Source of the DNA: Leptolyngbyaceae cyanobacterium
GTDB taxonomy: Bacteria; Cyanobacteriota; Cyanobacteriia; Phormidesmidales; Phormidesmidaceae
Direction of reading: 5' to 3'
DNA length: 64,000 nt
NCBI GenBank assembly: GCA_965263355.1
Contig: CBDHHL010000056.1
Coordinates: forward strand, 2,048,001-2,112,000
The notes under the pieces are model-generated. The model had not been told where the DNA came from. It did no database searches and saw only the letters and a list, made by a program, of their open reading frames with translations. Position 1 is the stretch's first letter; each line of letters starts with the position of its first letter. This document shows positions 20,547 through 62,689 of the stretch, piece after piece. A program made the position numbers and the translations under genes.

Positions 20547-21998
20547 ATGAAGCTTGTGAATCGTTTTGAACTACTCGAAATTTTAGACCAAGGTGGCTAT
20601 GGCATCACCTACCGAGCAATCGATCACCATCAGCCCAGTCACCCTGATTGTGTCGTTAAACAGCTGATCCACACCACGCCTAAAATTCTAGAGATGTTTC
20701 GCCAGGAGGCCAGTACCCTGGAAACAATAGGGGCACACTCCCGCATTCCTAAACTGTTGGCATATTTTGATGAGGGCAACAAATTTTACATTGCTCAGGA
20801 AATGATCCATGGCCATGATCTGAGACAAGAAATAAAAGCAGGTAAATCGCTGGACGAAAGTTATGTCACCAAGTTATTAAAAGATGTCTTGAGCGTCCTG
20901 GCCTTTGTTCATCAGCATCAAACCATTCATCGAGACATTAAGCCCGCAAACTTAATTCGTCAGGCTAGTAACGGCGATATTTTTTTAATTGACTTTGGAG
21001 TTGTCAAAGCCCTCAGCAATAGCAAAATCGACAACAAAGGACAGATGACGGCCACGGTTAACGTAGGCACACCGGGCTATGTTGCCCCTGAACAAGCACA
21101 GGGTAAACCCTGCTACGCCAGCGATCTCTATTCAGTTGGTATGTTGGCGATTGCTGCCCTCACTGACATTCATCCCCGTCAGTTAACAATTCATCCCTTA
21201 ACCCATCAGGTGCAATGGTCCAATGACAACATCAATCCAGCACTTAGAACCTTTATCAAACGGCTAGTAGAGCCTAATCCTAAGCATCGCTATCTGACTG
21301 CAGTCGAGGCTCTCAAAGGGTTTGAAAGAACCATTACAGGCATACGTGTGGGGCAAGATAGTCAACTCCCCACCCATGTTGCCGCCGGAGTTCAAGCCCC
21401 TGTGGAGTCTGAACCACCAACAAAATCGGCAAAGTTAATCCCGCCAAAACTGATTTTAAAGGTTATCGGTGCGATTACAGTGGTCTTACTCATGCTAGGG
21501 TTTGGTGTCAAAGGCTATCAATGGGCTGCCTACAACATTAGCCGCCGTTGGGACACAGTCACAGCAACGCCTAAAAGTTATGACAAAGCAAGACCAGATG
21601 AATTGGTTGCCCTGCTAGATGATGGCAGCATCCAGGCCAGACCAGAAATGGTAGACGCGTTTTGGAGCATGGTCGCTGCCGCCCAAAACGAAGGGGTGGC
21701 GCTGTTACCACTGGCAGGATATATCTCTTTATCTGATCAGCGTACACGCCTCAAGGAGAGAACAGATATCGATATTGAACAATGGCTAAAACAAAGTGAT
21801 TATCACAGCGGCTATGCTGTTGCCATTGGCGACAAAAATGCTGATGAGAGCACTGACTGGGATAGTAGCTTTGCAACAACAGATGGCTATCGCTGGCTAA
21901 AGCGCTATGCCAAAAACTATGGTTTCGAACTGTCTTACCCCCAGGGCAACCTGGCTGGAGAAGATGAGCCCTGGCACTGGCGCTATAGCGCTGAATAA
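20547..21998 (+). CDS. Ser/Thr protein kinase with TM segment and C-terminal VanY/M15B-like domain
   Basis: GGYGIT, VVK, HRDIKPAN, DFG, GTPGYVAPE; TM LILKVIGAITVVLLMLGFGV; C-terminal YGFELSYP...EPWHWRY. Confidence 0.92.
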   Translation: MKLVNRFELLEILDQGGYGITYRAIDHHQPSHPDCVVKQLIHTTPKILEMFRQEASTLETIGAHSRIPKLLAYFDEGNKFYIAQEMIHGHDLRQEIKAGKSLDESYVTKLLKDVLSVLAFVHQHQTIHRDIKPANLIRQASNGDIFLIDFGVVKALSNSKIDNKGQMTATVNVGTPGYVAPEQAQGKPCYASDLYSVGMLAIAALTDIHPRQLTIHPLTHQVQWSNDNINPALRTFIKRLVEPNPKHRYLTAVEALKGFERTITGIRVGQDSQLPTHVAAGVQAPVESEPPTKSAKLIPPKLILKVIGAITVVLLMLGFGVKGYQWAAYNISRRWDTVTATPKSYDKARPDELVALLDDGSIQARPEMVDAFWSMVAAAQNEGVALLPLAGYISLSDQRTRLKERTDIDIEQWLKQSDYHSGYAVAIGDKNADESTDWDSSFATTDGYRWLKRYAKNYGFELSYPQGNLAGEDEPWHWRYSAE

Positions 21999-22121
21999 AT
22001 GGAACGGGTATTTGTGGGCCGAGTTATAGTGGCCTTTGCCCTGGTAATTGCCGGTTATTTTGGTCAGTCACTATTCAGTCAATATATTGATACGCTAATG
22101 TTGGAGAAGGAACCACCCTAA
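21999..22121 (+). CDS. Putative 40-aa single-pass membrane protein
   Basis: ATG directly follows kinase stop; MERVFVGRVIVAFALVIAGYFGQSLFSQYIDTLMLEKEPP. Confidence 0.4.
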   Translation: MERVFVGRVIVAFALVIAGYFGQSLFSQYIDTLMLEKEPP

Positions 22122-22129
22122 CTACCCCC

Positions 22130-22771
22130 ATGGTCGCCCTTCCATCATTAGTTCCACCGCCTCAGCCCAGAGGCGAACAACGAGTCATCTTTCATAATCT
22201 TACCTGGGACGCTTATCAGCAAGTTTTACGAGCGCTAGGCACAAATCGCTCAGCTCGACTGGTTTATGACTGTGGCACGTTAGAAATTACTATGCCTCTT
22301 GAAGTCCATGAGTTTTATAGTGAACTGATTGGCCGTTTCATTTATTTTCTAGTGTCAGAAATGGGTCTAAAGCTTAAAAGCATGGGGTCAACTACCCTGG
22401 ACCGAGAAGATTTGGAGAAAGGGGCTGAACCAGACAAAGCCTATTACATTCAGAATCAGCCCAAGGTAGCTGGTAAAACGGTTGACTTAAGCCAGGATCC
22501 ACCACCAGATTTAGTAGTTGAGATAGATATTACCCATACGGATATCGACAAGCTGACGCTCTATGCCCGCATGGGAGTATCAGAATTTTGGCGATATGAC
22601 GGCAATATTTGGCATATTTATGAGTTAATTGATCATAAATACCGACAAGTTGAGATAAGCCCAACGTTTTCGTTTGTGCCTAAGGAGAAACTCTATGAGT
22701 TTTTAGAACAGGCACAGGTGGATGAAATTGAAGCAGAAAAGAGTTTACGCCAATGGATTAGAGAATCTTAA
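22130..22771 (+). CDS. Uma2 family (DUF820) endonuclease-like protein
   Basis: EPD.AYYIQN, PPPDLVVEIDIT, GVSEFWRYDG. Confidence 0.92.
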   Translation: MVALPSLVPPPQPRGEQRVIFHNLTWDAYQQVLRALGTNRSARLVYDCGTLEITMPLEVHEFYSELIGRFIYFLVSEMGLKLKSMGSTTLDREDLEKGAEPDKAYYIQNQPKVAGKTVDLSQDPPPDLVVEIDITHTDIDKLTLYARMGVSEFWRYDGNIWHIYELIDHKYRQVEISPTFSFVPKEKLYEFLEQAQVDEIEAEKSLRQWIRES

Positions 22772-22796
22772 AAGAGGATACCCAACGGTTTGTCCC

Positions 22797-23268
22797 CTAT
22801 GACCATATGCGTCTCAAGTCTAGAATAAAGCCAGGTAATATACTTTCTCCTGAAAGGGTTTCTGGATTTTTAATATAACGTTCTCTTGTCCTGCTCGATA
22901 AATTTCTACGCATTTAGTTTGTGGATCGATTAACCAGCCTAAACTAGCGCCATTATTCACATACTCTTGCATTTTCTCTTGCAGCTTTGTCAAGCTATCG
23001 GAGGCCGAACGTAGCTCAGTAACAAAGTCAGGACATAGGGAAATAAACCTCTAACGCTGTTCTAGGCTCAAGGCTTCCCAACGTTCTAAGGGTATCCAGA
23101 AAGCATCAGGGGAACGATCCCCGCCCCGTTGGGCAGATGGAAGCTGGTTGATGAATCGAAGGCAATGCCGCTACCGCCTTGTTCTTCTATCCATTTGACT
23201 AGGAAGTAGGCAATTTTAATATTGCGATGGCCAGTTTCTCCGCCAGTCGGTGGATTTACACGGTTAGT
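22797..23268 (-). pseudogene. Degraded Uma2 family gene
   Basis: Fragments PPTGGETGHRN, FDSST.FHLPNG, CPDFVTELRSASD, KMQEYVNNGASLGWLIDP with frameshifts/stops. Confidence 0.8.
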
Positions 23269-23270
23269 AA

Positions 23271-23335
23271 CGTTGGGTTAATGCAAGGTATCCCGATGAG
23301 GCGAAACATGTTGGTGGAGGGTTAACCCAACCTAC
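23271..23335. repeat. REP-like palindromic element (GTTGGGTTAA...TTAACCCAACCTAC)
   Basis: 10-bp inverted repeat with terminal CTAC (GTAG) tetranucleotide. Confidence 0.6.
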
Positions 23336-23401
23336 GTTTATGGGTGTTGGTAGGGCCAAGCGGGTCTTCGGGGTTATCCTACCAAAACGCTTGGCCCAGG
23401 G

Positions 23402-23752
23402 TTATTTTTGGAGGTGGTTACCCACGTCGCCGGAGAACGGTTCTGGACTCCCAAATGTACGCTCGATAAATTCCTGCACCAGATAAAACCGATTTGTCTG
23501 CTCAAATGACGCTAACAGTCGAGGAATCTGGTCATGCTCCCCCAGCCGCTCCAGCATTTCAGCTTCCTGATGGAATAGGCGAATAATTTGAGGATCGTTT
23601 TGATGATGGTGATGTAGTTCTTTCACCACACATAGAGGCTTTCCTGGCCGCATTGTATCTTTAGCCAGGTGGGTAATTCCAAATCCACCTTGGCTAAGTT
23701 GCTTAATGACTTGATAACGACCACCCAACATATGCATTTTGCCTAGGAACAC
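23402..23752 (-). pseudogene. Truncated Ser/Thr kinase (N-lobe only)
   Basis: RYQVIKQLSQGGFGIT...CVVKEL...YLVQEFIE, then diverges; no HRD or DFG. Confidence 0.8.
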
Positions 23753-27637: not shown

Positions 27638-27925
27638 ATGGTTGCCACGTCTACCAACTTGAGCATTCGTTGGGAAAAGCTACCCAAGCATTATGTTCTG
27701 CCGGATGATCCTGTGGACAATATTAGCCAACCCTTTATTGCCGCTGCGCTGAGTGAAAACCTTTCTATCGCTGGTCGGATTTCGGCAACAGCCCTGATAA
27801 CAACCAACTACGGCCTCTGTGCCACAGTCAACGATAAAACCGTAGTCAAGGCTCCTGATTGGGCGTTTATACCCCACATCACCGTACCTAGAGCAGACAT
27901 CGAACGGAGTTATACCCCATATTAG
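27638..27925 (+). pseudogene. 3'-truncated Uma2 family gene
   Basis: WEKLP..YVLPDDPVDN..QP...KAPDW...RSYTP N-terminus, ends early. Confidence 0.75.
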
Positions 27926-28060
27926 TTTCCCTGCGATATCGGATGCTATCAGTCAGGATTTCGTCTGATTAGCCTTGTGTGAGTAGCAATAAAAAGCTGC
28001 CTTCCACTTAGAAGACAGCCTATATGAGTAATTCGATAACTTTTCGTAACGAAAAGGGCC

Positions 28061-28183
28061 TTATTCTTCGCTAAACATGGATTGAATCTGACCTAGTGCA
28101 GCTTGGAAAATGTTAAACCCTGCCCAGCCCGCAGCTAGGGCAATGGGAGCAAGTACAGCTACAACCCGGAAATCAATGTCCAT
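28061..28183 (-). CDS. psbY: Photosystem II protein Y (below ORF-track cut-off)
   Basis: Manual translation MDIDFRVVAVLAPIALAAGWAGFNIFQAALGQIQSMFSEE; AGGAGG RBS upstream. Confidence 0.9.
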   Translation of the reverse strand: MDIDFRVVAVLAPIALAAGWAGFNIFQAALGQIQSMFSEE

Positions 28184-28407
28184 TACCGAACCTCCTGCGG
28201 AGAAAAACGTTTTAATAAATACTTAGATACAAGTCTCTCATAAACCATGCTCGGTTTGAAGTGGGGGTATCGGCTTCGCTGAAAGTTATTACCACTAACC
28301 ACCTGTGTTAGCTGGTGGACAATGCCCACCCTACAAATGCCTACAAATGCCTGATGTCTATTACTTGGGGGCATTGCAAGCCCCTAACCGTAGCCCATTT
28401 CCTTTTT

Positions 28408-28665
28408 ATGAAACTACCTGATCTGGACTCCGATACGATGAACCGTGTTATCGAGATGGCATGGGAGGACCGTACCCCATTTGAGGCGATTGAACTTCAA
28501 TATGGCCTCAAGGAAAAGCAGGTCATTGCTTTAATGCGTAGGCAAATGCAGCACTCTAGCTTTAAGATGTGGCGCAAGCGGGTAACCGGACGAAAAACTA
28601 AGCATCTAAAGCAGCGAGGTTTTGACAGCGGTCGCTTCCATTCGCAAAATCAAAAGGGTTCATAA
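28408..28665 (+). CDS. TIGR03643/DUF2805 family protein
   Basis: RVIEMAWEDRTPFEAIE.QYGL.E..VI..MR...SSFKMWRKRV.GR.TKH. Confidence 0.88.
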   Translation: MKLPDLDSDTMNRVIEMAWEDRTPFEAIELQYGLKEKQVIALMRRQMQHSSFKMWRKRVTGRKTKHLKQRGFDSGRFHSQNQKGS

Positions 28666-28686
28666 CTCACAGCTGTTTCGTTCACT

Positions 28687-29433
28687 ATGACTCATCGTCC
28701 CGTCGCCGCCATTACCGGTGCTTCCAGTGGTATTGGTCGTGCGATCGCAACCCGCCTCGCAGCGGATGGCTATGACTTAGCCCTGTGTGCCCGTCGTCAG
28801 CAGCGTCTGACCGAGCTAGCTGAAAAATTATCCCAGCAGCATGGAGCGGCAGTGCTGACGAAAAATGTTGACCTGCGAGATGAACCACAGATTTTGCAGT
28901 GGTTTAGTGCGATCGCAACCCGCTTTAACCGCCTGGACGTTCTCGTTAATAACGCTGGCCTTGGCTATCAAGAATCCCTCACCAGCGGCAGTACCGCAAA
29001 ATGGCGCGAAACCTTAGAGGTTAATGTCATTGCCCTCTCTATCTGCACCCGTGAAGCGATCCAGCTCATGCGGCATCTGGGTAACGACCAGGGCCATGTG
29101 GTCCATATCAGCTCTATGTCAGGCCATCGAGTTCCCGGTAGCGGCATGTACTCGGCATCTAAATTTGCCGTCCGTGCCCTCACCGAAGGACTACGACAAG
29201 AACTGCGGGCAAATCAAAGCGCTATTCGCATTTCCTCCATCAGTCCTGGCTTTGTGGAAACCGAGTTTGCAGAAAAATACTCCGGTAGCATCGAGCAAGC
29301 TCAACAGGTCTATAGCCAATTCCAAGTGCTGCAGCCCAAGGATATTGCTAACGCTATCGCTTATGTCTTAAGCCAACCTGACTATGTGCAGGTGCATGAC
29401 ATTTTGATCAGACCCACCCACCAGATCAGTTAA
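28687..29433 (+). CDS. SDR family oxidoreductase
   Basis: TGASSGIG, NNAG, YSASK. Confidence 0.93.
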   Translation: MTHRPVAAITGASSGIGRAIATRLAADGYDLALCARRQQRLTELAEKLSQQHGAAVLTKNVDLRDEPQILQWFSAIATRFNRLDVLVNNAGLGYQESLTSGSTAKWRETLEVNVIALSICTREAIQLMRHLGNDQGHVVHISSMSGHRVPGSGMYSASKFAVRALTEGLRQELRANQSAIRISSISPGFVETEFAEKYSGSIEQAQQVYSQFQVLQPKDIANAIAYVLSQPDYVQVHDILIRPTHQIS

Positions 29434-30296
29434 GCCTGCTCCATCCAGTCAATACAGATTTGCAACTCCTTCGCCATGGCATCGCTGTGAAACCGACGAC
29501 CGTGACCAGGGATTACCCACTCAAAGGGATAGTCTGCCAAACGTTTCATTGACTTGATTTGCTCTGCCCAGGAATACCAACAATAACGGCGGAACGCGTG
29601 GAGGTGCCCCAGGTAAACTGACCAGGCAAGGTGATCGCCTGTGAAGAGAAACTTGTTCTTATATAGCAAGACAGTATGGCCTTTGCTATGGCCAGGGACT
29701 GGAATGATAGTTATGTCAGTTGCCAGCTGATAGGGGGCTTGGCCTGTTAGCTGGATTTCGACAGCTTGGGTGTCGGTGGTAATGTCGTCGGCGTGGAGAA
29801 TGCGATCGCAACCAAAATGCTGCTGAAACTTAGCATGATCCGCCACATCATCCCGATGGGTGAGATACAAATACTGAACGCCTCCCATAGTCTCCAACTG
29901 TTTCACTAAAGGGGGTGTAAACCGAGGAGAATCAATCAACATATTTCCTTCGGGCCGCTGAATCAAGTAGCTAGCAGCGGCATAGGATTTCTCCGAGTGA
30001 TAGCCACAGTGATACACATTGTCCTCAATCAGATCTGGCAGCTGAGCCTGGGCCTGCTTTATATCCTTGGGTGTGGCCACCGTTCCAATTGATGCCGTCG
30101 GACAAGACAACAACGCCTTTAATGATTGAATCCGTTGCTCTGGCGTTTGCGGTTGAGTATGTACTGCCGACATATCTCCATCCCGACCAAACACCTCGGG
30201 AGCCATCCACCGACACGTATCACAATCAATACAAGTAGAATCCACAAACAGATCGCCGTCAACATTCTCCTGGCGACGGGCCGTAAGCTGAGCCAT
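29430..30296 (-). CDS. Ferredoxin-fused MBL-fold metallohydrolase
   Basis: CIDCDTC...CP cluster; THRDDVADH; PGHSKGH; FTGDH; PGHG. Confidence 0.9.
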   Translation of the reverse strand: MAQLTARRQENVDGDLFVDSTCIDCDTCRWMAPEVFGRDGDMSAVHTQPQTPEQRIQSLKALLSCPTASIGTVATPKDIKQAQAQLPDLIEDNVYHCGYHSEKSYAAASYLIQRPEGNMLIDSPRFTPPLVKQLETMGGVQYLYLTHRDDVADHAKFQQHFGCDRILHADDITTDTQAVEIQLTGQAPYQLATDITIIPVPGHSKGHTVLLYKNKFLFTGDHLAWSVYLGHLHAFRRYCWYSWAEQIKSMKRLADYPFEWVIPGHGRRFHSDAMAKELQICIDWMEQA

Positions 30297-30335
30297 AATA
30301 CTACCCCGCTGTGTTTTCTCTCCAGTCTAGTCAAT

Positions 30336-30397
30336 AGAACTCAAACCGTTGGCTGAGTGAAACAGAACTCAAACCGTTCGCTGAGCGAAGCCAAAGC
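30336..30397. repeat. 28-bp-period duplication with REP-like CTGAGCGAAG motif
   Basis: AGAACTCAAACCGTT(G/C)GCTGAG(T/C)GAA twice; related to 59466-59489. Confidence 0.55.
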
Positions 30398-30402
30398 CAC
30401 GG

Positions 30403-31542
30403 CTAGAACTCTCTCTGTAGCTGCATTAGCAAGTCATCCACCAGATTAATCACCAGCCCCTTTATCTCACTCGCCCCACTAGAATGGGCCGCTGTTCTCG
30501 GCAAAAACAGAATTTCAGTACTATGGGCAGGTAACGGTCTGCCCGTTTGCGCCGTAAGCCACACTAACGGCGGTGCTGGCAGTTTAGACTCTCCTGTATC
30601 GTCAGCTTGAATGCCTGCTAAAGCCGTTAACACCGATGTGTTTTCCTGCAAAAGCCCTGTCTTTGCACTCCAGAACTGAGCCGCCAACCCTTGCCTTTGA
30701 GCATAGGCATAGAGTGATGCCGCTGCAATGACCGCCTGCTCAAAACTATCGATAGCCCAGGCATCAGAAGTATCCAGAGCAATAATCAAACTCTGGTGAC
30801 TGGTCAGCACCTCCAACTCCCGCACCCGCAATTCTCCATACCGGGCACTGGTGCGCCAGTGAATTAACCGGGTTGGATCCCCCCAACGATAGGGCCGTAG
30901 GGCACGGGTTAACCCTTCTGTCCCGCTGGCATTAATGGGAGTCTTCTGCAGCCGTTGTCGCCCTGCTTCATCGCCTAAAACATCAATGGCTGGACAACGC
31001 TCCAACGGCAGTATTTGCGGATAAACTACGGCCTTGGCCTTGGCAGGCTGGAGACGACTGCACCAAAACAGACCGAGGGGAGCCGCTGTGCGTAAACGCA
31101 CATCAGGCCAGGTATAGATGCCGCGTTTCTCAGTGGGAATTTCGTAGCGCCAGGTGTGTTGAGACTTTGCTGGCAACCGATCAATGGCATGGATAGGCTG
31201 CTTCCCTAACCCAATTGGCACTAGATCTTGCAACTGTAGCAAACTCTTCAGGTGAGTCGTTGTATTTTTGAGGGTCACTACCATCGAGACGGCGTCCCCT
31301 GCTGAGACAGGGCGTGGCAGTTGCCGAGTTACGTCCAGCCCTTGTAATGCCCGCTGCGGCAAAATTGACGACACTGACAGCAACGCAATCGAGACGCCAC
31401 TGATCACATAGAGCCACCCGGCCATGGTATTGGTCGCTGCCCCCAAAAAGCACAGCGTAATTCCCAACAACACCCAGCCACTATAGGCAGGTGTCACCCA
31501 GTTTGCTTCCATCCAACGAGACAAGGGTCTTAGCCAAAACAT
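30403..31542 (-). CDS. DUF58 domain protein
   Basis: LRPYRWGDPTRLIHWRTSAR.GEL.VRE; N-terminal TMs. Confidence 0.9.
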   Translation of the reverse strand: MFWLRPLSRWMEANWVTPAYSGWVLLGITLCFLGAATNTMAGWLYVISGVSIALLSVSSILPQRALQGLDVTRQLPRPVSAGDAVSMVVTLKNTTTHLKSLLQLQDLVPIGLGKQPIHAIDRLPAKSQHTWRYEIPTEKRGIYTWPDVRLRTAAPLGLFWCSRLQPAKAKAVVYPQILPLERCPAIDVLGDEAGRQRLQKTPINASGTEGLTRALRPYRWGDPTRLIHWRTSARYGELRVRELEVLTSHQSLIIALDTSDAWAIDSFEQAVIAAASLYAYAQRQGLAAQFWSAKTGLLQENTSVLTALAGIQADDTGESKLPAPPLVWLTAQTGRPLPAHSTEILFLPRTAAHSSGASEIKGLVINLVDDLLMQLQREF

Positions 31543-31642
31543 CGATTACGCCCTCAAACGACTGAGCCAAATACCATTAATGGTGCCTTAAGTAATTAGG
31601 TTAAACTGATGACACTACAAATGGCTCCTGAACACCCTAGCC

Positions 31643-32398
31643 ATGACGATTCCTCGCTCGCCACTAAGCGCCATTATTTATCCAGAGTCAGACGGTCAAC
31701 CGATGACAGAAAGCGATGCTACCCGAGACTATTTGTTTTATGGCGTTGAGGCCCTAAGGCTATATTTCAAGAGCCGTGGCAGTGTCTATGTATCTGGTAA
31801 TTTGTTTATCTACTACGAAGAGGGTAATCCTAAAGCCGTTATTTCACCTGATGTGTTTGTGGTGTTCGGTGTTAGCCACCGCAAACGACGTAGCTATAAA
31901 ACCTGGCAGGAAAACCATAAACTACCGTCCTTTATCCTAGAAATTACGTCAAAAACGACTAAGAAACAGGACCAGGAAACCGAACCAGAACTATACGCTA
32001 GTTTAGGGGTTGAAGAATATTTTCAATATGATCCTACTGCTGATTATTTGGTTCCACAGTTACAGGGAGCACGCTTGGTAGATGGTTGCTATGAACCATT
32101 GCCAGTCCAGCACACAGAGGAAAACATTGCTTATATCCGCAGTCAGGTACTTGGTTTAGATTTGCAGCTACGTAACGTCTTCAAGGGAATTGGTATCGCA
32201 CCATTACCTAAAGCACTACGGTTTTATGATCCTCAAACTAACCGCATCTTACCTAGTCAAGAGGAAGTGCTCGAAGAACGCAATAACACCTTACAGGCAT
32301 TGGATAATGCCGAGCAGCGGGCAGATTCGGCAGAGCAGCGGGCGGCAGCATTAGCGGAGAAGTTGCGATCGCTCGGCATCGATCCAGAGGAGGTTTAG
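31643..32398 (+). CDS. Uma2 family protein
   Basis: YPESDGQPM, PDVFVVFGV, LEITS, GVEEYFQYDP. Confidence 0.92.
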   Translation: MTIPRSPLSAIIYPESDGQPMTESDATRDYLFYGVEALRLYFKSRGSVYVSGNLFIYYEEGNPKAVISPDVFVVFGVSHRKRRSYKTWQENHKLPSFILEITSKTTKKQDQETEPELYASLGVEEYFQYDPTADYLVPQLQGARLVDGCYEPLPVQHTEENIAYIRSQVLGLDLQLRNVFKGIGIAPLPKALRFYDPQTNRILPSQEEVLEERNNTLQALDNAEQRADSAEQRAAALAEKLRSLGIDPEEV

Positions 32399-33009
32399 AT
32401 TCCTGACGCAAATACTGCATCTACGGTCAAATCCAACCCAGGAAATACTCCAGAAATCAATTTTTCTCCTGTTACAAATCGTCGCATTTGATATTCGTCT
32501 CCATCTAGCTGGCAGATCGTAATCGTCGGCTGCTTCGGCTTGCCAATATGACGTACGGCCCCTAAGGCTCGAAAATCAACCAGCCAATATTCAGCAATGC
32601 CCATGGCCTCATATTCAACAAACTTGTGTCCATAGTCATCCCGCCAGTTAGTGCTCACCACCTCCACCACCAGGGGGGCTGTTTTACCATCTTGTATCAC
32701 TGAAGCTGTTGGCCATAGAGATTCCTGCTTTAATAAGTCACGATTAAGGACGACCACATCAGGCATATAGCCTGAGCCTTCGGCGTGAGGTTTCACTAAA
32801 CAAGTACGAGGAATTGAGTAAGGCAACTTATTTCGCCGAATTGCAAAATTAAATTCTGCGCTCAAAAAGCCAGCGATATCTTCATGGGGACCTGTTGGCA
32901 ACATCTCAACCACAACTCCCTCAATCAATTCATACCGACGGCCATCGTCTGGATACCACTCCAGAAACGCTTCAAAACTCATCGGGCTGACTACCCGCGC
33001 CTGAACCAT
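32395..33009 (-). CDS. Uma2 family protein
   Basis: RYELIEG, PDVVV, LVVEVVSTNWRDDY, GIAEYWLVD. Confidence 0.92.
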   Translation of the reverse strand: MVQARVVSPMSFEAFLEWYPDDGRRYELIEGVVVEMLPTGPHEDIAGFLSAEFNFAIRRNKLPYSIPRTCLVKPHAEGSGYMPDVVVLNRDLLKQESLWPTASVIQDGKTAPLVVEVVSTNWRDDYGHKFVEYEAMGIAEYWLVDFRALGAVRHIGKPKQPTITICQLDGDEYQMRRFVTGEKLISGVFPGLDLTVDAVFASGI

Positions 33010-33063
33010 AAGGAATCCTCAATTTGGTCTAAAGTCTGAGGTTAGACCTAGTATAGGCTCAAT

Positions 33064-33318
33064 TTATCCAGCGGTAATGTTCTGCCAGAGTTCAGAGATG
33101 GGGAAGGTTTGGCGGGATTGGGCTTGCTGGGTGGCGGTTTGCAGGTCTGCGAGGATTTGGCTGTTGGGTTCTTGCTCGTCAATGGGGTCAAGGCCGCTGC
33201 TGTTTTGAAGGATTGCTAGCAGTGTTTCCCACAGGTCTACCGGAATGAGGACATCGGTTTTTTCTCCGGCAGCGTTGGTGAGGTAGCGGACTTGGTTGGT
33301 GATTTTGGAGGAAAGCAT
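33064..33318 (-). CDS. Small antitoxin-like hypothetical protein (no partner seen)
   Basis: YLTNAAGEKTDVLIP...W and C-terminal T.PISELW resemble cyanobacterial antitoxin-like proteins. Confidence 0.5.
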   Translation of the reverse strand: MLSSKITNQVRYLTNAAGEKTDVLIPVDLWETLLAILQNSSGLDPIDEQEPNSQILADLQTATQQAQSRQTFPISELWQNITAG

Positions 33319-33356
33319 TGTCGAATTCTATAACTTGGTTGATAGGGCTATAAAAA

Positions 33357-33706
33357 CTAGGTAGCTAGCTTAAACGTATGTACGAGGCTCTGATTCAGAC
33401 GTTGCATGAGGTCAGGCCCTAAATTACCCAGGCGTCTTCGCAAAAGACGGCGTTCTAAGGTTACGATTCTGCCAACACGAACCTTAGAGGTTACTTTCAG
33501 ACCGCTTTGAGCAAACTCTGGTACCTCAGCTTCAATCAGAAATTCATCGTCAGTGAGGCGGTTGAGGTTTTGGGATGAGATGAAACATAGGGTAATGTCA
33601 TTGCCGTTGGGATCGCCCCATAGAATAATAGCGGGTCTGAGCTTGGTCTGGCTTAGATCGGTAAAGGGAAAGGAACTAGGACGATGTCGCCTTTAACGAG
33701 GGTCAT
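33357..33706 (-). pseudogene. PemK/MazF-family toxin with a 1-nt frameshift
   Basis: MTLVKGDIVLVPFP / TDLSQTKLRPAIIL...SGLKVTSKVRVGRIVTL; span 350 nt, one base short of whole codons. Confidence 0.85.
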
Positions 33707-33924
33707 AGGGCAGACTCTCCGATGGGTTCTCCATCTTCTAGGCTGTAGAGGTCGGGTTCTTCGGCAAGGAAGTGAAAACTGCTGCCCTGTAGGGCTAAGG
33801 TGATCAGCTCAAAGGCTGTGGGATAGGCCGTGTCGAAAAATAGCTTTTCCTCCAGGGCGGATTGTTCTGCAGTTGATAGGGACCGAATGATTTGAACCAG
33901 GGAATCAATGAGTTGGGTGTTCAT
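33703..33924 (-). CDS. Putative antitoxin coupled to the PemK-like gene
   Basis: MNTQLIDSLVQII...SFHFLAEEPDLYSLEDGEPI; ATGA stop/start overlap with toxin. Confidence 0.7.
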   Translation of the reverse strand: MNTQLIDSLVQIIRSLSTAEQSALEEKLFFDTAYPTAFELITLALQGSSFHFLAEEPDLYSLEDGEPIGESAL

Positions 33925-33971
33925 GGGTGTATTCGATGTGGTGATGGCGGATAGGTCTATGCTAACGGGCT

Positions 33972-34235
33972 TTAGAGTTGACCTTTGAAGGCTTTGTCGA
34001 GGATGGCGGGGAGTAGGACGTCGAGTTCGGTGGCGGTTTGGGTTTGGAGGGTGCGGAGGGTGTTGATTGTTGTTTGGAGCTTGTCGAGGTAAGTGACCAT
34101 TTGTTTTTGAAAGAAGGGCATGCGACAAGGCCAGCTGCAAACAATTTTAGAATCAACTCTTTTACGTGTCGTATCTCCTGTAGTTGTCGAGAGATAATCT
34201 TCTATGTCTACAGAAGCCTGAATCAAACAATACAT
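33972..34235 (-). pseudogene. hsdS: C-terminal remnant of type I RM specificity subunit
   Basis: QKQMVTYLDKLQ..INTLRTLQTQTATELDVLLPAILDKAFKGQL matches the conserved HsdS C-terminal helix. Confidence 0.75.
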
Positions 34236-34436
34236 AAAACACTGACAAATCTGTCGATGGCTGAGTGCTAACTAAAGCATCTGCTATAGTTGCCGTTGAT
34301 AGATATAGTAGGTAAATATTTTTTCTATCTTCTCCCTTAGTACTTACTGATGTGACAGTACCGATGATCGAAACTATATATCTGTAGAGAAATAGTCTAG
34401 AGATGAATAATAAAGCTTCAAGCTCCTACTGCTTAT

Positions 34437-37178
34437 TTAAATTGCTGCTTTTTGCAAAAAATCGATTAGGTGCTTATAAGTTACAGGTAATATACTCGTC
34501 AACTCCTTACGTCTCTTTAACCACTCTCTTCTTTCTTTCCAGTTAGTTTTATGATACTCCTGACTATAAGCAGTTGACCTACTGCTATAGTTTCGAAATT
34601 CATGACATTTCATAAGTCCAGGCAAAGTCATTGGAGCAAGATTTTTCATTTCCGATATCATATTTTTCATCCCATTAATGTTTCTCTCTGGGCATTGTCG
34701 TTGGGTTATTCCATCAAGTAAAACTTGGTGGAATGAATCACTGTACAAAATAAATAACTCAGGTTCTCTCTCATAATATCCTTTTGCTTTGCATACATTC
34801 TTCAGTGCCGCATCATAGGCGTCTTTGCCCAGGAAAGATTTAAGATTTATTTTTACTCCTATCTCCTGAGGTAATTTAAAGAAATGAATCATATAGTCAG
34901 TAATACCGTCTGTAGAATCTTCTTCCACAAGAAAGTAGTTACTTATGAACCAGCTTGGATAGTTATTAAAGTATTCATAACTATATCCTCTTGAAGCCAT
35001 AAGATATCCAATCACCAAATTAAAATCATCAGATATTTTTTGCCCATTTGAGTAAAGCTCATCAAAAAGCCTCATTGTAATCTCTGGAAACTCCTTAAAG
35101 ACTTTCACAATAAGAGATACATAAAAAGGTAAGTCGTTTTCATGGTTCTGTTTTTTCAATTCTGTCCTCAGTAAATCAGGCAGGATAGAATTTATATCTT
35201 CTCTCTCACTTAAAATATCTAATAAACTTCTTTTTAGTATCCAGTGAGTTTCAGCTTTTTCTAAACTTGAAAAGCTGAACGAGAGAACCTCTTTTATATT
35301 TATTTGATCCTTGAAAAGTTTATGTTCTAAAATTTTTGCTGTACACCAATCGTGTGGTAGTGAAGACTTTACTAGATGAATTAGAGATTCAGAAATGTCA
35401 TCATAATCATCAAATTTATTTAGGTAATAAATACAGACATCAGTTAAATAAGGATAGTCATATAATACCTCCAATACTATTTTTTTCGCCCAGCTAAGTG
35501 GGTTTAGTCGAAATAATGAAAACTTGAAGTTTGTCGAATCCTTAATAATAACTTCCCCTTCCGAATTCTGTTCAAAAGATGACTTTAAGATATCCTCCAA
35601 GGCTTCTTGCTTTGTCTCATCATCCTTTTCAGCAAGATATAGACTTATGAGGCTATTTTCTCCCTTTAGGATTTCATCCACATTATTTGGTTTCTTAATT
35701 TCTGTTTTTCCACTTTGTGGAATTAGGGAAAGTTCTCTGGCATTTATATCAAGCTCAATCAGCCCTTTTGTGACAGATATCTTGTCTTTACCCATCAACA
35801 TGATGTCATCAACATATCGCAGGTAAATGAAGTCATGTCTTATGGCTAATGCATGCATTTTCTTGTCCAAATGGTGAAGATATATATTAGCTAAAGCTTG
35901 TGAAGCGCATGGTCCTTGTGGAATTCCTTGAGAATAATTAAAGCTGACTTCTTTAGGCTTGCACCATTTATCTAAAGCTCTTAGGAATTGTCTCCTAAGA
36001 CTTTTATCAAAGGTATTTACTGCGACTTCAACTAAAATCTTATGATCTATAACATCATAGAAAGAAGCAAGGTCAAATTTGCAAATCCATTGGAAACCTG
36101 AATCGAATTTAGTCCTAATAGTATTCTTGTATGCTTCATATTCATCTTTCCAACTTGAAAGAAAAAATATACTTTTAGGACTGTCTATATTGAATCCACC
36201 ATAAACAAGATTTTTGCGAAAACGCTTTATCTCTTCCAATCTAGCTTCACAGACGAGATTGGCTACAGCTTGATAAAATATTTGATCTTTTACAGATAGA
36301 ACCGTAATGGGTCTAACTAAGCCTGAATTCTTTGGTAAATAATACTTGCTGGAACCAGATGGACTGTAGGTTTCATTTCTTATCTCTAGAGATAGAAGAT
36401 TTATCTTTTCCTTCTGATTCCAGCCAAATGCTTCATAAGATTCTAAATTCAGTTGCTTATAATCTTTGTTGCTGCTCGTCAATACTCTTTGCCAAGCTAG
36501 GCTTAGATTTTCTTCCCTAGACAGACTCTCAATGGTAAATAAGTTTGAGTTTTTTTGGGAAGTGCTTATACAAAATATTCTTTTATTTTCTTTGTCTTCT
36601 TGTAATTTAGAGGTAGCGTCTTCCTGTGAAGATGCTGGTGGATTATTATTGGCAATGTTTTCTCTCCTTTCTCCCTGTTGGTTAAGGGTTTTCGAAGGTC
36701 TGACAGGTAATGTTTCGCTATTCTTTCGCCTGATGTTAGATATTACTTTTTCAATTTCTTTAGAGATTTCTTGAAAGGCAAGGTCTTTTGATTCCCATCT
36801 GGTTACTGGTTGATTATTGGAGGGCAATGATTTCAGCTTTTCAAAAGGAGTGCCTTCAAAGCCTACGGGGCGTAACAAAATCGGAATTACACATGCATTT
36901 CCAGAATTATGGCGTTTCATAGCCAGCTTGACCTCAATTTCATAGCAATAGTCTGATGCTATGAAATCTACACTTACCAAAAGAAGAATGATATCAGCGG
37001 TTTTAAGATTACGGTCTATTTCATCGTCTTTCTCAGCACCTGCAAGAATTTCCTGGTCATGCCAACTGTGGATGACTTTCCGTCTTTCAAGGATTATGAG
37101 GTGTTTGGCTAACTCTGCTCTTAGCTCCTCATCCTTGTGGGAATAAGAAAAGAAAACTGATATCGGTTTTTCCGTCAT
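34437..37178 (-). CDS. TIR domain - reverse transcriptase fusion with long alpha-helical C-terminus (putative defence RT)
   Basis: TIR: VFFSYSHKD, WHD, ADIILLLVS.DFIASDYCYEIE; RT: KNSGLVRPI, KFDLASFYDVIDH, GIPQG..SQALANIYL, YLRYVDDI (Y455). Confidence 0.92.
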   Translation of the reverse strand: MTEKPISVFFSYSHKDEELRAELAKHLIILERRKVIHSWHDQEILAGAEKDDEIDRNLKTADIILLLVSVDFIASDYCYEIEVKLAMKRHNSGNACVIPILLRPVGFEGTPFEKLKSLPSNNQPVTRWESKDLAFQEISKEIEKVISNIRRKNSETLPVRPSKTLNQQGERRENIANNNPPASSQEDATSKLQEDKENKRIFCISTSQKNSNLFTIESLSREENLSLAWQRVLTSSNKDYKQLNLESYEAFGWNQKEKINLLSLEIRNETYSPSGSSKYYLPKNSGLVRPITVLSVKDQIFYQAVANLVCEARLEEIKRFRKNLVYGGFNIDSPKSIFFLSSWKDEYEAYKNTIRTKFDSGFQWICKFDLASFYDVIDHKILVEVAVNTFDKSLRRQFLRALDKWCKPKEVSFNYSQGIPQGPCASQALANIYLHHLDKKMHALAIRHDFIYLRYVDDIMLMGKDKISVTKGLIELDINARELSLIPQSGKTEIKKPNNVDEILKGENSLISLYLAEKDDETKQEALEDILKSSFEQNSEGEVIIKDSTNFKFSLFRLNPLSWAKKIVLEVLYDYPYLTDVCIYYLNKFDDYDDISESLIHLVKSSLPHDWCTAKILEHKLFKDQINIKEVLSFSFSSLEKAETHWILKRSLLDILSEREDINSILPDLLRTELKKQNHENDLPFYVSLIVKVFKEFPEITMRLFDELYSNGQKISDDFNLVIGYLMASRGYSYEYFNNYPSWFISNYFLVEEDSTDGITDYMIHFFKLPQEIGVKINLKSFLGKDAYDAALKNVCKAKGYYEREPELFILYSDSFHQVLLDGITQRQCPERNINGMKNMISEMKNLAPMTLPGLMKCHEFRNYSSRSTAYSQEYHKTNWKERREWLKRRKELTSILPVTYKHLIDFLQKAAI

Positions 37179-37289
37179 CCTACAACGGTTATATTGCTAA
37201 GCTGTGCCAATGATAGCCTTGAACTTTAAGATAGTCAGGCATTAGCAGAAGGAAGAACCTGATGTAGCTAATTCTTTTGCGCTCGACTG

Positions 37290-37371
37290 CCGTCGAGTGA
37301 GGCTCACGCTCCCACACAACCTCTTGAAGCTTGGGTAATACATACTTTCGACAGCTATCAGCTTCACTCAT
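37290..37371 (-). pseudogene. hsdR: N-terminal stub of type I RM restriction subunit
   Basis: MSEADSCRKYVLPKLQ..W..EPHS resembles the start of EcoEI-like HsdR proteins. Confidence 0.6.
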
Positions 37372-37598
37372 GGTCAAGACGGTTGAAAAATTATCGTCAG
37401 AGAGCAAAATAACGACTAAACTGCCTGTCACCTACGCCCTTCTATATAGTTCACCCATAAATCAAACAAAACTGATAGTTTTTTAGCAGAAATTTCAACA
37501 TTCGTTATGCGTCACACGCTAGACGTCTTACTTTTTGGCTCAAATCAGTTCCAATCAATTCAGCTAAAATAAGCGCAGTATATTCCCGGGCTAATGCA

Positions 37599-38192
37599 AT
37601 GGTTGCTTTGCCGTCTCTACCCTTCGATACCCACACACTCAAACGCTGGAGCGTGGACGAATACCATCGCATGGCAGAGACTGGGCTATTGGCTGAGTGC
37701 GATCGCACAGAACTTCTGGCAGGACAGATCATCCTTATGATTGCCAAAGGCACCCCCCACGTCACCGCCCTTCGCCTAGTAGCAACCGCCTTAGATCAGG
37801 CATTAGCCAATCAGCCATTCTTCGTCAGCACCCAAGACCCCATTCAGTTGGACGACTATTCAGAACCTGAACCTGACCTAGCCATTGTTAAAGGCAATTT
37901 TCTAGACTACGCCGCCCATCATCCCACCCCACAAGATATTTGCCTGGTGGTTGAAGTGGCCGATTCCACCCTAAAGCAAGACTGCGAAGTCAAAGACAAA
38001 CTCTATGCCCAAGCTGGCATCAACGATTACTGGGTGTTGGACCTACCCCATCGACAGCTGCACATTTTTCGCACACCCACCACGACTGGCTATACCAGCC
38101 ACCTCATCCTTAAACAAGATCAGCAAATCTCTCCCCTAGCCTTTCCAGAGATTATGCTGTCCTTAGAAAAGTTGTTGCCACCTGTTGTCTAA
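37599..38192 (+). CDS. Uma2 family protein
   Basis: WSVDEYHRM, SEPEPDLAIV, VEVADSTL, YAQAGINDYWVLDL. Confidence 0.92.
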   Translation: MVALPSLPFDTHTLKRWSVDEYHRMAETGLLAECDRTELLAGQIILMIAKGTPHVTALRLVATALDQALANQPFFVSTQDPIQLDDYSEPEPDLAIVKGNFLDYAAHHPTPQDICLVVEVADSTLKQDCEVKDKLYAQAGINDYWVLDLPHRQLHIFRTPTTTGYTSHLILKQDQQISPLAFPEIMLSLEKLLPPVV

Positions 38193-38279: not shown

Positions 38280-40076
38280 TTAACGCTTAGCAAGCTTTTT
38301 TTTAGGCATCTTGCGCAGACGAATGGACTCCGGAGTTACTTCCACCATCTCATCCGATGCAATGTACTCCAGCGCTCGCTCCAGACCCATTTCCTGAGGT
38401 GCCTGTAGCTGAACCAATTCATCACCACTCGCCGCTCGGTGGTTGGTAAGCTGCTTCTTAGCCTTACAGATGTTTAGCTCCAGATCCTGGGGACGATTAT
38501 TTTCCCCAACAATCATGCCCTTATACACCTTGGTACCCGGCTCAATAAAGAAGATGCCGCGATCTTCAGCATTCTTCAGCGCGTAGAATGTGGCCACGCC
38601 TTCTTCAAAGGAAATCAGCACACCATTGCGGCGAGCAGCCACCTCCCCAGACATGGGCCGATACTCCAAGAAACTGTGGTTCATAATGCCCTCACCGCGA
38701 GTTTGACGCATAAACTCACCTCGGAAGCCAATCAAACCACGGGCCGGTACTACAAACTCAAGCTGGGCACGGCCATTGCCGTCCACCATCATGTCTTGCA
38801 TTTCACCACGACGCTGACCCAAACGCTCCATACAGCCACCCACAGCATCTTCAGGCACGTCCATCACCAGCTGCTCGTAGGGCTCACAGGGCTGACCGTT
38901 TACTTCACGGAAAATTACCTGAGGCTGAGATACCTGAAACTCGTAGCCTTCCCGACGCATGGTTTCAATCAAAATGCCGAGGTGAAGTTCACCCCGACCC
39001 GATACTCCAAAACGGTCGGGGGAGTCAGTTTCTTCCACACGCAAAGCAACGTTGGTTTCCAATTCGCGCATTAAGCGATCGCGAATCTGACGTGACGTAA
39101 CAAACTTACCTTCTTTACCCGCAAACGGAGAGTCATTCACCGCAAAGGTCATCTGCAGAGTGGGCTCATCCACCTTAATCAATGGCAAGGCTTGGGGATT
39201 CTCAGGAGACGTCAGCGTTTCACCAATGTTGGCATCCGCAAAACCAGCCACTGCCACAATATTGCCAGCCGTCGCTTCTTCAATTTCAGTACGCTGCAGG
39301 CCTTCAAACCCCATCAGCTTAGAAATTTTAGACTTAACGATTGAGCCGTCTTCTCTAACCAAAGCCACCTGCTCACCCGCATGAATCCTCCCGTTGTGGA
39401 CCTTACCAATGACGATGCGGCCAAGGTACTCGGAGTAAGCCAGGGTGGTCACCTGCAGCTGTAAGGGCTTTTCAGAATCACCCACTGGCGGTGGCACATG
39501 GTGCAAAATCCCCTCAAATAGAGGCTGCATATCCTTGTCTTCGTCTTCTAGCGAATTTTTGGCATAGCCAGATAGACCGGACGCAAACAGATAAGGAAAA
39601 TCGCACTGGTCATCATCAGCCCCCAGCTCGATAAATAAATCCAGCACCTTATCAACCGCACCCATGGGTTCTGCCCGAGGCCGGTCAATCTTATTGACCA
39701 CTACGATGGGTCGCAACCCTTTCTCCAGGGCCTTCTTGAGTACAAACCGGGTTTGGGGCATTGGCCCTTCATTCGCATCCACAATCAGGATGCAGCCATC
39801 TACCATCCCGAGAACCCGTTCTACTTCACCACCAAAATCTGCGTGGCCAGGGGTATCAACAATATTGATTAGAGTGTCTTTATAATGAACTGCCGTGTTC
39901 TTGGAAAGAATCGTGATCCCACGCTCACGCTCCAGATCATTGGAGTCCATGACACAGGTGGGTACCTCTTCACCTTCCCGGAAGATACCGGACTGTTGAA
40001 GCAGGGAGTCAACCAGGGTGGTCTTACCGTGGTCTACGTGGGCGATAATTGCAACGTTGCGGATGGGAAGGCTCAT
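38280..40076 (-). CDS. typA: Translational GTPase TypA/BipA
   Basis: [42 protein letters not shown]. Confidence 0.98.
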
Positions 40077-62104: not shown

Positions 62105-62689
62105 ATGTCCGCTCTAACCCTATATTCATCAAAGGAATATCTTGAGCTAGAAACCTCAGCAACATTTAAGAGTGAATATCATGATGGCAAATTGGTATCT
62201 ATGACGGGTGGATCAACCAATCATAATCAAATCATTATTAACCTGATTGCATTTTTGAAATTCAGCTTGAAGAGTAAGGGCTATCGGCAATTTGCAGGAG
62301 ACGTAAAATTATGGATACCTGCAGTGCGACGTTACACCTATCCAGATCTGATGATTGTGCAGGGAGGTCCTGTCTATCACGATAACCGGACAGATACGAT
62401 TGAAAACCCTACGGCCATCATTGAAGTTTTATCTAAGTCCACACAAGACTATGATCATGGCGATAAGTTCAGCGCCTATAGAACGATTGCCACATTTCAA
62501 GAGTATGTATTGGTTAATCAGTACAAACAACAGATTGAACACTACGTCAAAACTGCTGAGAAACGCTGGTCTTTTCGGGAATATGATGCCAATGATCAGC
62601 AGTTGTCATTAGAAAAAGTACCGTTTGAAATCTTGTTAACTGATCTGTATGATGAGGTTGATTTTGCTCTAGAAAGTCCTGGAAACTGA
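62105..62689 (+). CDS. Uma2 family protein
   Basis: KSEYHDG, YTYPD, IIEVLSKST..YD.G.KF..YR, EYVLV. Confidence 0.92.
   Translation: MSALTLYSSKEYLELETSATFKSEYHDGKLVSMTGGSTNHNQIIINLIAFLKFSLKSKGYRQFAGDVKLWIPAVRRYTYPDLMIVQGGPVYHDNRTDTIENPTAIIEVLSKSTQDYDHGDKFSAYRTIATFQEYVLVNQYKQQIEHYVKTAEKRWSFREYDANDQQLSLEKVPFEILLTDLYDEVDFALESPGN

What the first reader, a model, noticed from the sequence alone, without database searches (positions are those of the whole stretch)
34437..37178. Single-gene TIR-reverse transcriptase fusion: candidate undescribed anti-phage system
Seen: an intact 913-aa ORF with an N-terminal TIR domain (aa ~5-145) that keeps the Glu of the DYCYEIE motif. A disordered linker follows, then an RT core with GxxRPI, FDLASFYD, GIPQG and YVDD (Y455), then about 400 aa of helical-looking C-terminus. 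It is visibly AT-rich relative to its neighbours and lacks HIP1 sites. Established: bacterial TIR domains act as NADases or signal-producing enzymes in Thoeris, CBASS, Pycsar and short-Argonaute defence. RTs with long alpha-helical C-terminal extensions belong to the UG/Abi (AbiK/AbiA/DRT) group. The retron RT-TIR fusions I recall carry TIR C-terminally and have retron motifs (NAxxH, VTG), which are absent here. Inference: a one-protein abortive-infection system in which a UG/Abi-like RT senses infection or makes a DNA product that oligomerises and activates the TIR effector.
Basis: partly seen in the sequence, partly recalled or inferred. Interest (0 to 1): 0.92.

Follow-up and report, generated by a model that had tools for sequence, protein, structure and literature searches.

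The report
TIR-fused UG19 anti-phage reverse transcriptase
This cyanobacterial gene belongs to a known but untested family of predicted anti-phage polymerases; unlike nearly all its relatives it has gained an NAD-destroying-type TIR domain at the front and lost a key residue of the RNA-cutting domain at the back, which looks like one killing module replacing another.

Summary
The 913-aa ORF is real: TIR (aa 5-152), linker, RT (215-507), helical repeats. The RT belongs to UG19, a class 1 UG/Abi group predicted defensive in 2022; I found no experimental study of it. Typical UG19 proteins are ~700 aa, lack TIR and keep the HEPN Rx6H motif (His in 115 of 117 aligned rows). TIR fusion appears in only three assemblies, forming one RT clade. 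In the window's sub-lineage the HEPN His is Thr (also in an 84%-identical fragment) and the HEPN evolves faster, while the TIR keeps four Cat1 active-site residues and is under strong purifying selection (dN/dS 0.044). The 49%-identical sister keeps both TIR and His. Best reading (0.5): an RT/ssDNA phage sensor whose output moved from HEPN RNase to TIR NADase. Nothing is shown biochemically, and AbiA's HEPN motif is dispensable for defence. A Bacillus RT carries the same TIR subfamily C-terminally, a separate fusion. The missing HIP1 sites are not significant. Verdict: new variant of a known kind, rare, testable.

The parts
34437..37178 (-). Whole gene, 913 aa: TIR - linker - UG19 RT - alpha-helical repeats - degenerate HEPN
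36723..37166 (-). TIR domain (aa 5-152); S11, D41, S75, E82 match Cat1 active-site residues S7, D33, S68, E74; dN/dS 0.044 against L006
36933..36935 (-). Codon of the conserved TIR glutamate E82
36537..36722 (-). Low-confidence, fast-evolving linker (aa 153-214), dN/dS 0.59; no Met where TIR-less relatives begin
35658..36536 (-). UG19 reverse-transcriptase domain (aa 215-507)
35805..35816 (-). Catalytic YVDD (aa 455-458)
34869..35657 (-). Alpha-helical repeat (alphaRep) domain, aa ~508-770; together with the RT it superposes over 400-447 residues on AbiA, DRT4, DRT6, AbiK, Abi-P2
34440..34868 (-). HEPN-fold domain, aa ~771-913
34572..34595 (-). Degenerate HEPN motif R862-x6-T869 (His in 115 of 117 aligned rows)
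33972..34121 (-). Context: remnant tail of a type I restriction-modification specificity subunit
   Evidence: PADLOC Specificity_I, profile 347-391 of 391, E 3.6e-7; loose end of a contig in run X5 continues it
33357..33708 (-). Context: frameshifted PemK/MazF-like toxin gene
   Evidence: Pfam PemK E 1.6e-10; its start lies in another frame
37599..38192 (+). Context: Uma2-family gene; with typA (38280-40076) the upstream neighbourhood shared with L006

Best explanation
A one-protein anti-phage system of the UG19 (class 1 UG/Abi) family whose toxic output has moved from a HEPN RNase to a TIR NADase. Shown: domain order, UG19 membership, intact YVDD, intact and conserved TIR pocket, His-to-Thr in HEPN, faster HEPN evolution in this lineage. 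Inferred from class 1 relatives (AbiA, AbiK, DRT4): the RT primes on one of its own residues and makes template-free ssDNA that stays attached to an oligomer; a phage ssDNA-binding protein, helicase or a rise in dNTPs engages that DNA and rearranges or clusters the oligomers. Inferred from TIR enzymes (Cat1, TSR1): clustering lets the tethered TIR domains stack into composite active sites and destroy NAD+, stalling the infected cell. The HEPN is kept as a structural part, not a nuclease. History: TIR was gained first (P0002 has TIR and His), the His was lost afterwards.
For: UG19 best hit for the protein and for all 10 relatives tested. RT+helical model (pLDDT mostly >85) superposes on AbiA (Z 20.5, 400 aa, rmsd 4.4), DRT4 (Z 20.3, 437 aa, 4.2), DRT6, AbiK. 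C-terminal model (pLDDT 93): best matches are HEPN domains (7ae2 Z 10.1, 122 aa, rmsd 3.4; AbiA rank 4). R862 in 115 and H869 in 115 of 117 rows; the two non-His rows are the window and P0126. Lineage-specific changes window:P0002 in HEPN 24:7, 18:8, 18:10, 24:5, 18:7, 19:12 with six outgroups, against about 1:1 in RT and alphaRep. TIR: 3 non-synonymous against 17 synonymous changes over 152 codons; S11/D41/S75/E82 align to Cat1 S7/D33/S68/E74, of which D33A, S68A and E74A were defective in vivo. The three TIR-bearing RTs form one branch (SH-aLRT 100) inside TIR-less relatives. Context fits a defence hotspot. DRT4 couples protein-primed ssDNA and phage SSB to an effector RNase (abstract); TSR1 is a TIR NADase on which a second domain imposes a dimer (abstract).
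Against: No activity is measured for any UG19 protein. In AbiA the HEPN R and H are dispensable for defence and no RNase activity was seen, so loss of the His need not mean a change of effector. The relative-rate excess is below p 0.05 with 3 of 6 non-independent outgroups (range 0.001-0.28). The His loss rests on two sequences. This TIR subfamily is fused to many sensor scaffolds (TPR, NACHT, WD40, COR, kinases) and keeps E82 throughout, so E82 alone does not show a killing role. Cat1's trans residues K121/Y122 fall outside the aligned stretch. The priming residue was not identified.
Confidence: 0.5

Rival explanations
1. The RT and its ssDNA are themselves the anti-phage agent (decoy or blocker of phage replication proteins, as proposed for DRT9 and possible for AbiA). 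HEPN is structural in the whole family, the His loss is incidental, and TIR is a useful accessory second arm.
For: AbiA HEPN R/H mutants keep defence. Most UG19 proteins lack TIR (0 of 149 representatives). DRT9 ssDNA acts as an SSB decoy.
Against: His kept in 115 of 117 rows that are 20-25% identical is hard to explain without catalysis; its loss falls within the TIR-bearing branch and goes with faster HEPN change; the TIR is more conserved than the RT between window and L006.
Confidence: 0.2
2. The TIR does not kill by NAD+ depletion but signals: it makes an ADPR-derived messenger (Thoeris-like) or acts as a TIR-TIR adaptor for another TIR-bearing effector elsewhere in the genome.
For: Best TIR model is PADLOC ThsB1 (E 1e-51); the subfamily is widespread on sensor proteins of cyanobacteria and myxobacteria.
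Against: No ThsA-type hit among 56 ORFs of the window; L005 and L006 show no shared partner gene; the closest solved TIR by sequence is the bulk NADase Cat1 (E 2e-7). The genome is not held, so a distant partner is not excluded.
Confidence: 0.15
3. Dual effector: the window's HEPN still cuts RNA using another residue (for example the conserved H859), so TIR was added and nothing replaced.
For: R862, H859 and D814 are kept; P0002 carries both modules, so dual forms exist.
Against: HEPN nucleases lose activity when the motif His is changed (as stated in PMC11077055); HEPN rate excess in this lineage.
Confidence: 0.08
4. A chance fusion or a decaying gene with no selected link between TIR and RT.
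For: Very rare (three assemblies); broken neighbours; long TIR branches, and a single TIR origin is not resolved.
Against: One open frame and the same order in proteins 49% identical; dN/dS 0.044 (TIR) and 0.10 (RT N-part); 96 of 100 RT positions invariant in seven relatives are kept.
Confidence: 0.07

Closest known systems
UG19-large (class 1 UG/Abi RT; Mestre et al. 2022, PMC9226505; PADLOC RT_UG19)
   Same: RT + alphaRep + C-terminal domain described there as unknown with very distant HEPN homology; predicted defence function from individual loci; stand-alone gene.
   Different: N-terminal TIR and linker (+214 aa); HEPN His replaced by Thr. 'TIR' occurs 0 times in that paper's main text; its supplementary tables were not visible to me.
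AbiA of Lactococcus (PDB 8oz7; PMC11077055)
   Same: RT-helical-HEPN order; both RT+helical part and C-terminal domain superpose; a HEPN with a structural role.
   Different: About 15% identity, another UG/Abi group; AbiA keeps Rx6H and has no TIR.
DRT4 / UG15 (PDB 9vdo; bioRxiv 10.64898/2026.10.27.754916)
   Same: Class 1 fold (437 aa aligned); model for ssDNA-as-sensor coupled to an enzymatic effector.
   Different: DRT4's effector is an RNase activity; no TIR or HEPN fusion is described in the parts I read.
Retron-TIR (NCBIfam NF042941; tested as TIR-Retron in PMC11350192)
   Same: RT and TIR in one defence protein; triggered by phage SSB and primase-helicase, a precedent for DNA-sensing control of a TIR.
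   Different: Retron RT; 38 bits against a cut-off of 600, matching only RT motifs 415-464; no NAxxH/VTG; no conserved flanking RNA; 464-position model with the RT motif at 136-185, so the opposite order (inferred).
Cat1 (TIR-CARF, PDB 9mud; PMC12162218) and TSR1 (bioRxiv 10.64898/2026.09.16.751991)
   Same: Closest solved TIR by sequence; S7, D33, S68, E74 equivalents kept; activation by multimerisation.
   Different: These sense cyclic oligoadenylates through CARF or SAVED; no RT.
DRT1 (RT-nitrilase; PMC13275509)
   Same: One gene giving RT, DNA adduct and effector; both active sites needed.
   Different: Class 3, nitrilase effector at the C-terminus.

Membership tests
UG19 (class 1 UG/Abi) | RT falls in the UG19 group | tested here: met
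   PADLOC RT_UG19 E 8.9e-115 over aa 216-882, next UG21 7e-55; the relatives used for the tree also hit UG19 best where tested. Profile assignment; no tree with reference sequences of all 42 groups was built.
UG19 (class 1 UG/Abi) | alpha-helical repeat domain C-terminal to the RT | tested here: met
   Confident helical array aa ~508-770; 400-447 aa superpose on AbiA, DRT4, DRT6, AbiK, Abi-P2
UG19-large | fused C-terminal HEPN-like domain | tested here: met
   Top VIA matches are HEPN domains, Z 8-10; Z is in the range where helical bundles can match by chance and Foldseek gave no E<=0.001, but the Rx6H column is conserved family-wide
Catalytic HEPN RNase | R-x(4-6)-H motif | tested here: not met
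   R862-x6-T869; met by P0002 and 114 other rows
UG19 / class 1 UG/Abi | protein-primed, template-free DNA synthesis; homo-oligomer | not testable with these tools
   Known for AbiA, AbiK, Abi-P2, DRT4; needs biochemistry
UG19 / class 1 UG/Abi | anti-phage activity | not testable with these tools
   Predicted for UG19 from locus inspection; context here is suggestive only
TIR NADase | catalytic Glu and pocket residues | tested here: met
   S11/D41/S75/E82 align to Cat1 S7/D33/S68/E74; E82 in 115 of 116 rows
TIR NADase | TIR fold in a structure model; multimer-dependent NAD+ cleavage | tested here: inconclusive
   The full-length model failed over aa 1-135 (pLDDT <50; only 2 of 119 rows cover it); activity not testable
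   Both absent; NF042941 38.3 bits against 600
Retron-TIR / class 2 DRT | associated structured ncRNA | tested here: inconclusive
   No Rfam match near gathering score; among 6 upstream and 4 downstream flanks only window-L006 share sequence. A divergent RNA is not excluded.
Thoeris | TIR sensor beside a ThsA effector | tested here: not met
   No ThsA-type hit among 56 window ORFs (best 5 models per protein shown); rest of genome not held

The most novel reading that the evidence does not exclude
A natural three-step series of an effector swap on one template-free polymerase sensor: RT-alphaRep-HEPN(active) -> TIR-RT-alphaRep-HEPN(active; P0002) -> TIR-RT-alphaRep-HEPN(dead; this gene). [quoted passage not shown] It would be, as far as my searches reach, the first NAD+-depleting defence RT outside the retrons, and a direct test of what the random DNA of Abi polymerases is for.
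Probability: 0.4. Interest if true: 0.78.

Novelty: new variant of a known kind. Interest (0 to 1): 0.6.

Why it matters
What the random, protein-primed DNA of class 1 UG/Abi polymerases does is only now being worked out, mostly from DRT4. A member wired to a TIR has an easy read-out (NAD+), so YVDD and E82 mutants can show whether the DNA product is a trigger or a brake. The three natural forms (HEPN only, both, TIR with dead HEPN) allow a clean comparison of effector exchange on one sensor, and give the first handle on UG19, for which I found no experimental study. Against this, the variant is very rare and both parts are familiar defence modules.

Tried and rejected
HIP1 absence as evidence of foreign origin: rejected, P(0)=0.31. 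Retron, group II intron or DGR identity: scores far below cut-offs; top Foldseek and VIA ranks include such RTs but, in VIA, cover only the RT core. Conserved ncRNA: none found. Promoter and terminator scans at chance level; no convincing terminal or direct repeats in 31.5-38.4 kb. More TIR fusions: search of proteins under 502 aa with the TIR-RT junction gave 4 TIR-less RT fragments; profile search of proteins of 833 aa or more gave P0002 as the only strong hit among 11; viral contigs 0 of 91 candidates; plasmids 33 records, the 20 listed matching only the TIR; 5 of 401 genomes of the phylum of G001 hold a UG19-type RT, none with this TIR in the fetched loci. These searches are word- or sample-limited: not found, not absent. 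No close genome of the host among 401 (typA at most 76%), so an empty site could not be examined in a genome; one contig in run X5 joins 32436 to 37546 with unknown letters between, a weak hint only. HEPN homodimer prediction: no verdict (score 0.16), no evidence either way. TIR in the full-length model: failed for lack of alignment depth. Foldseek on the HEPN model: nothing at E<=0.001. ESM Atlas: best 0.81, leads only. No RNA holder listed. Single origin of the two TIRs: sisters in a 40-row tree with support 75, unresolved in a 113-row tree. Earlier findings by sequence and by five words: none.
Full report
OBSERVATION. The ORF at 34437-37178 (-) is intact, 913 aa. Pfam gives TIR_2 at aa 8-104, TIR at 10-158 and RVT_1 at 282-495, all above cut-off. 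The gene is 34.8% GC against 48.1% for the window, the lowest of 38 ORFs of 200 aa or more. The host is a cyanobacterium (cyanobacterial RNA polymerase gamma subunit; 27 HIP1 sites against 0.46 expected). The lack of HIP1 in the gene is not significant: 1.16 expected, P(0)=0.31. No whole genome is held.

WHICH RT. PADLOC assigns it to UG19 (E 8.9e-115, aa 216-882; next UG21 7e-55). NCBIfam retron, group II and Drt2/3a models score far below cut-off, including Retron_TIR (38 bits against 600). Mestre et al. 2022 (PMC9226505; I saw the abstract, term passages, part 4 of 10 of the main text and the tree file of the supplement) place UG19 in class 1 (RT + alpha-helical repeats), say it carries an unknown C-terminal domain, fused (large) or separate (small), with very distant HEPN homology, and predict defence from individual loci. 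'TIR' occurs 0 times in the main text. The supplement archive was cut before the tables, so a TIR note in Table S1/S2 cannot be excluded. An AlphaFold2 model is confident from aa ~211 on; RT plus helical part superposes over 400-447 residues on AbiA (Z 20.5, rmsd 4.4), DRT4 (20.3, 4.2), DRT6 (19.4, 4.3), AbiK (19.1, 3.9) and Abi-P2, whereas DGR, group II and retron RTs align over 227-284 residues only.

THE MISSED DOMAIN. Folded alone, aa 752-913 gives pLDDT 93; the best of 48,161 chains are HEPN domains (7ae2 Z 10.1, 122 aa, rmsd 3.4; 2hsb 9.6; AbiA 9.1; sacsin HEPN 8.8). These Z values are modest for a helical bundle and Foldseek found nothing at E<=0.001, but sequence agrees: in alignment A2 (119 rows; 2 fragments do not reach the site) position 862 is Arg in 115 of 117 and position 869 His in 115 of 117. 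Three of the 112 representatives of 640 aa or more were left out of A2 (P0133 and P0181, which have gaps at the site, and P0270, which keeps the His). The two non-His rows are the window protein and P0126, an 84%-identical C-terminal fragment from another record, both Thr, so the change is a lineage trait, not a read error.

HOW COMMON IS THE TIR. Rare. Of the best 120 listed of 290 hits, six are full-length relatives of the RT: P0002 (915 aa, 49% over 99%) with TIR and five of 700-720 aa without. An exhaustive search with the RT part gave 3266 hits; none of the 149 new representatives among the best 150 has a TIR, 112 are 640 aa or longer and the longest is 790 aa. A profile search limited to proteins of 833 aa or more returned P0002 as the only strong hit of 11. 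A metagenome scan gave 6 loci: L005 (P0002), L006 (91% over aa 1-361, cut by the contig end) and four TIR-less ones, two near-duplicate pairs. 5 of 401 genomes of the phylum hold a UG19-type RT, none with this TIR in the fetched loci. In a 33-row tree of the RT part (quick method, SH-aLRT only) window, L006 and P0002 form one branch (100) nested among TIR-less relatives. The TIR tree neither shows nor rejects one origin. One gain of TIR, then loss of the His in the window's sub-lineage, is the simplest history; P0002 has both.

SELECTION. Window against L006: TIR 3 non-synonymous and 17 synonymous changes in 152 codons (dN/dS 0.044), RT N-part 0.10, linker 0.59. Synonymous divergence of the gene (0.25) is well below that of typA (1.03) and the Uma2 gene (0.75) beside it, which suggests exchange of the gene more recent than the split of the hosts (inference). 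Lineage-specific changes, window against P0002, are about equal in RT and alphaRep but 1.6 to 4.8 times higher for the window in HEPN with each of six outgroups (binomial p 0.001-0.28; below 0.05 in 3 of 6; outgroups not independent). The TIR keeps E82 (115 of 116 rows); its closest solved relative by sequence is the NADase Cat1 (E 2e-7), whose pocket residues S7, D33, S68, E74 (PMC12162218, passages) align to S11, D41, S75, E82. The same TIR subfamily rides on many scaffolds, among them TPR, NACHT, WD40, COR and SAVED proteins, so it is a mobile module.

CONTEXT. Downstream lie the last ~45 codons of a type I specificity subunit, small toxin-antitoxin-like genes with a frameshifted PemK and Uma2 genes; upstream Uma2 and typA, shared with L006. 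TIR-less relatives and L005 also sit by toxin-antitoxin or integrase fragments. No ThsA-type gene among 56 ORFs, no partner gene shared between loci, no conserved RNA.

MECHANISM. Shown: architecture, family, motifs, selection. From established relatives: class 1 UG/Abi RTs oligomerise and make protein-primed, template-free ssDNA (PMC13275509, passages); DRT4 turns that ssDNA plus phage SSB and raised dNTPs into RNase activation (bioRxiv 2026.10.27.754916, abstract and introduction); TIR NADases need stacking; a second domain can impose a dimer on a TIR effector (bioRxiv 2026.09.16.751991, abstract); TIR-Retron responds to phage SSB and primase-helicase (PMC11350192, passages). Inferred: ancestral UG19 uses HEPN as RNase; here the trigger clusters tethered TIRs and drains NAD+, with HEPN kept as scaffold (0.5). 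The main counter-evidence is AbiA (PMC11077055, abstract and sections 19 and 25): its HEPN dimerises, shows no RNase activity, its R and H are dispensable for defence, and defence may not be abortive. Rivals: RT or ssDNA as the agent with TIR accessory (0.2); TIR as signal or adaptor (0.15); both effectors active (0.08); chance fusion (0.07).

A SECOND FUSION. P0014's cluster (16 members, including Bacillus methanolicus WP_003349674.1 and Aeribacillus composti) has an RT whose best model is also UG19 but weakly (3e-51; UG21 3e-43, UG34 9e-41), 28% identical to the window's RT, and a C-terminal TIR of the same subfamily (48%, Glu kept). Opposite order and distant RT point to a separate capture. 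Two earlier notes of this scan (unchecked by me) report a DRT8-type RT beside a TIR gene and TIR/nitrilase swaps on a helical scaffold; they are leads only.

NOVELTY. Nine literature searches found no paper on a TIR-fused UG/Abi RT and no experimental study of UG19; of 6 listed papers holding 'UG19' two concern RTs, and the second (PMC8934634, passage) only lists it. A TIR survey (bioRxiv 2025.12.03.692087, term search) does not mention reverse transcriptases in its main text. Review articles returned by these searches were seen as listings only. The library lacks most subscription papers and bioRxiv supplements. Verdict: member of UG19-large; new variant by the N-terminal TIR and dead HEPN motif; works most likely like DRT4 with an NADase output. 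Interest 0.6.

Noticed in passing
P0014 / P0284 cluster (Bacillus methanolicus WP_003349674.1, Aeribacillus composti): RT - helical region - stretch that looks kinase-like by eye (no Pfam hit) - C-terminal TIR of the same subfamily with the Glu kept; a separate RT-TIR fusion in cultured Bacillota, 16 members; accession not found in the held part of the Mestre 2022 supplement. Easier to test than the window gene.
   Followed up: partly
L005:654-3401 (P0002): TIR-UG19 with both TIR Glu and HEPN Rx6H intact: candidate dual-effector intermediate; flanked by a Phd/YefM antitoxin gene.
   Followed up: partly
window 33972-34121: Tail of a type I specificity subunit right behind the gene; a contig of run X5 continues it into an HsdS-like sequence, so the site may once have held a restriction system.
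   Followed up: partly
window 33064-33927: Cluster of small antitoxin-like ORFs and a frameshifted PemK/MazF-like gene.
   Followed up: partly
window 34437-37178 against L006:5001-6084: Synonymous divergence 0.25 in the gene but 0.75-1.03 in neighbouring Uma2 and typA, although the site is the same: recent exchange at a shared hotspot.
   Followed up: partly
UG19 family alignment A2: The 'unknown' C-terminal domain of UG19-large carries a near-invariant R-x6-H and folds as HEPN; this firms up the distant homology noted in 2022.
   Followed up: yes
window 27638-38192 and 62105-62686: Several Uma2-family (PADLOC PDC-S03-like) genes, at least four intact and one short fragment, around and away from the locus.
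   Followed up: no
window 20547-23752: Ser/Thr kinase, a kinase fragment and a gene hitting PADLOC PDC-S17 (E 1e-37) at 22130-22768 with lowered GC.
   Followed up: no
L003:5497-8890: Two adjacent long ORFs (452 and 706 aa), both under a weak RT match, that look like a DRT3-type RT pair (by eye).
   Followed up: no
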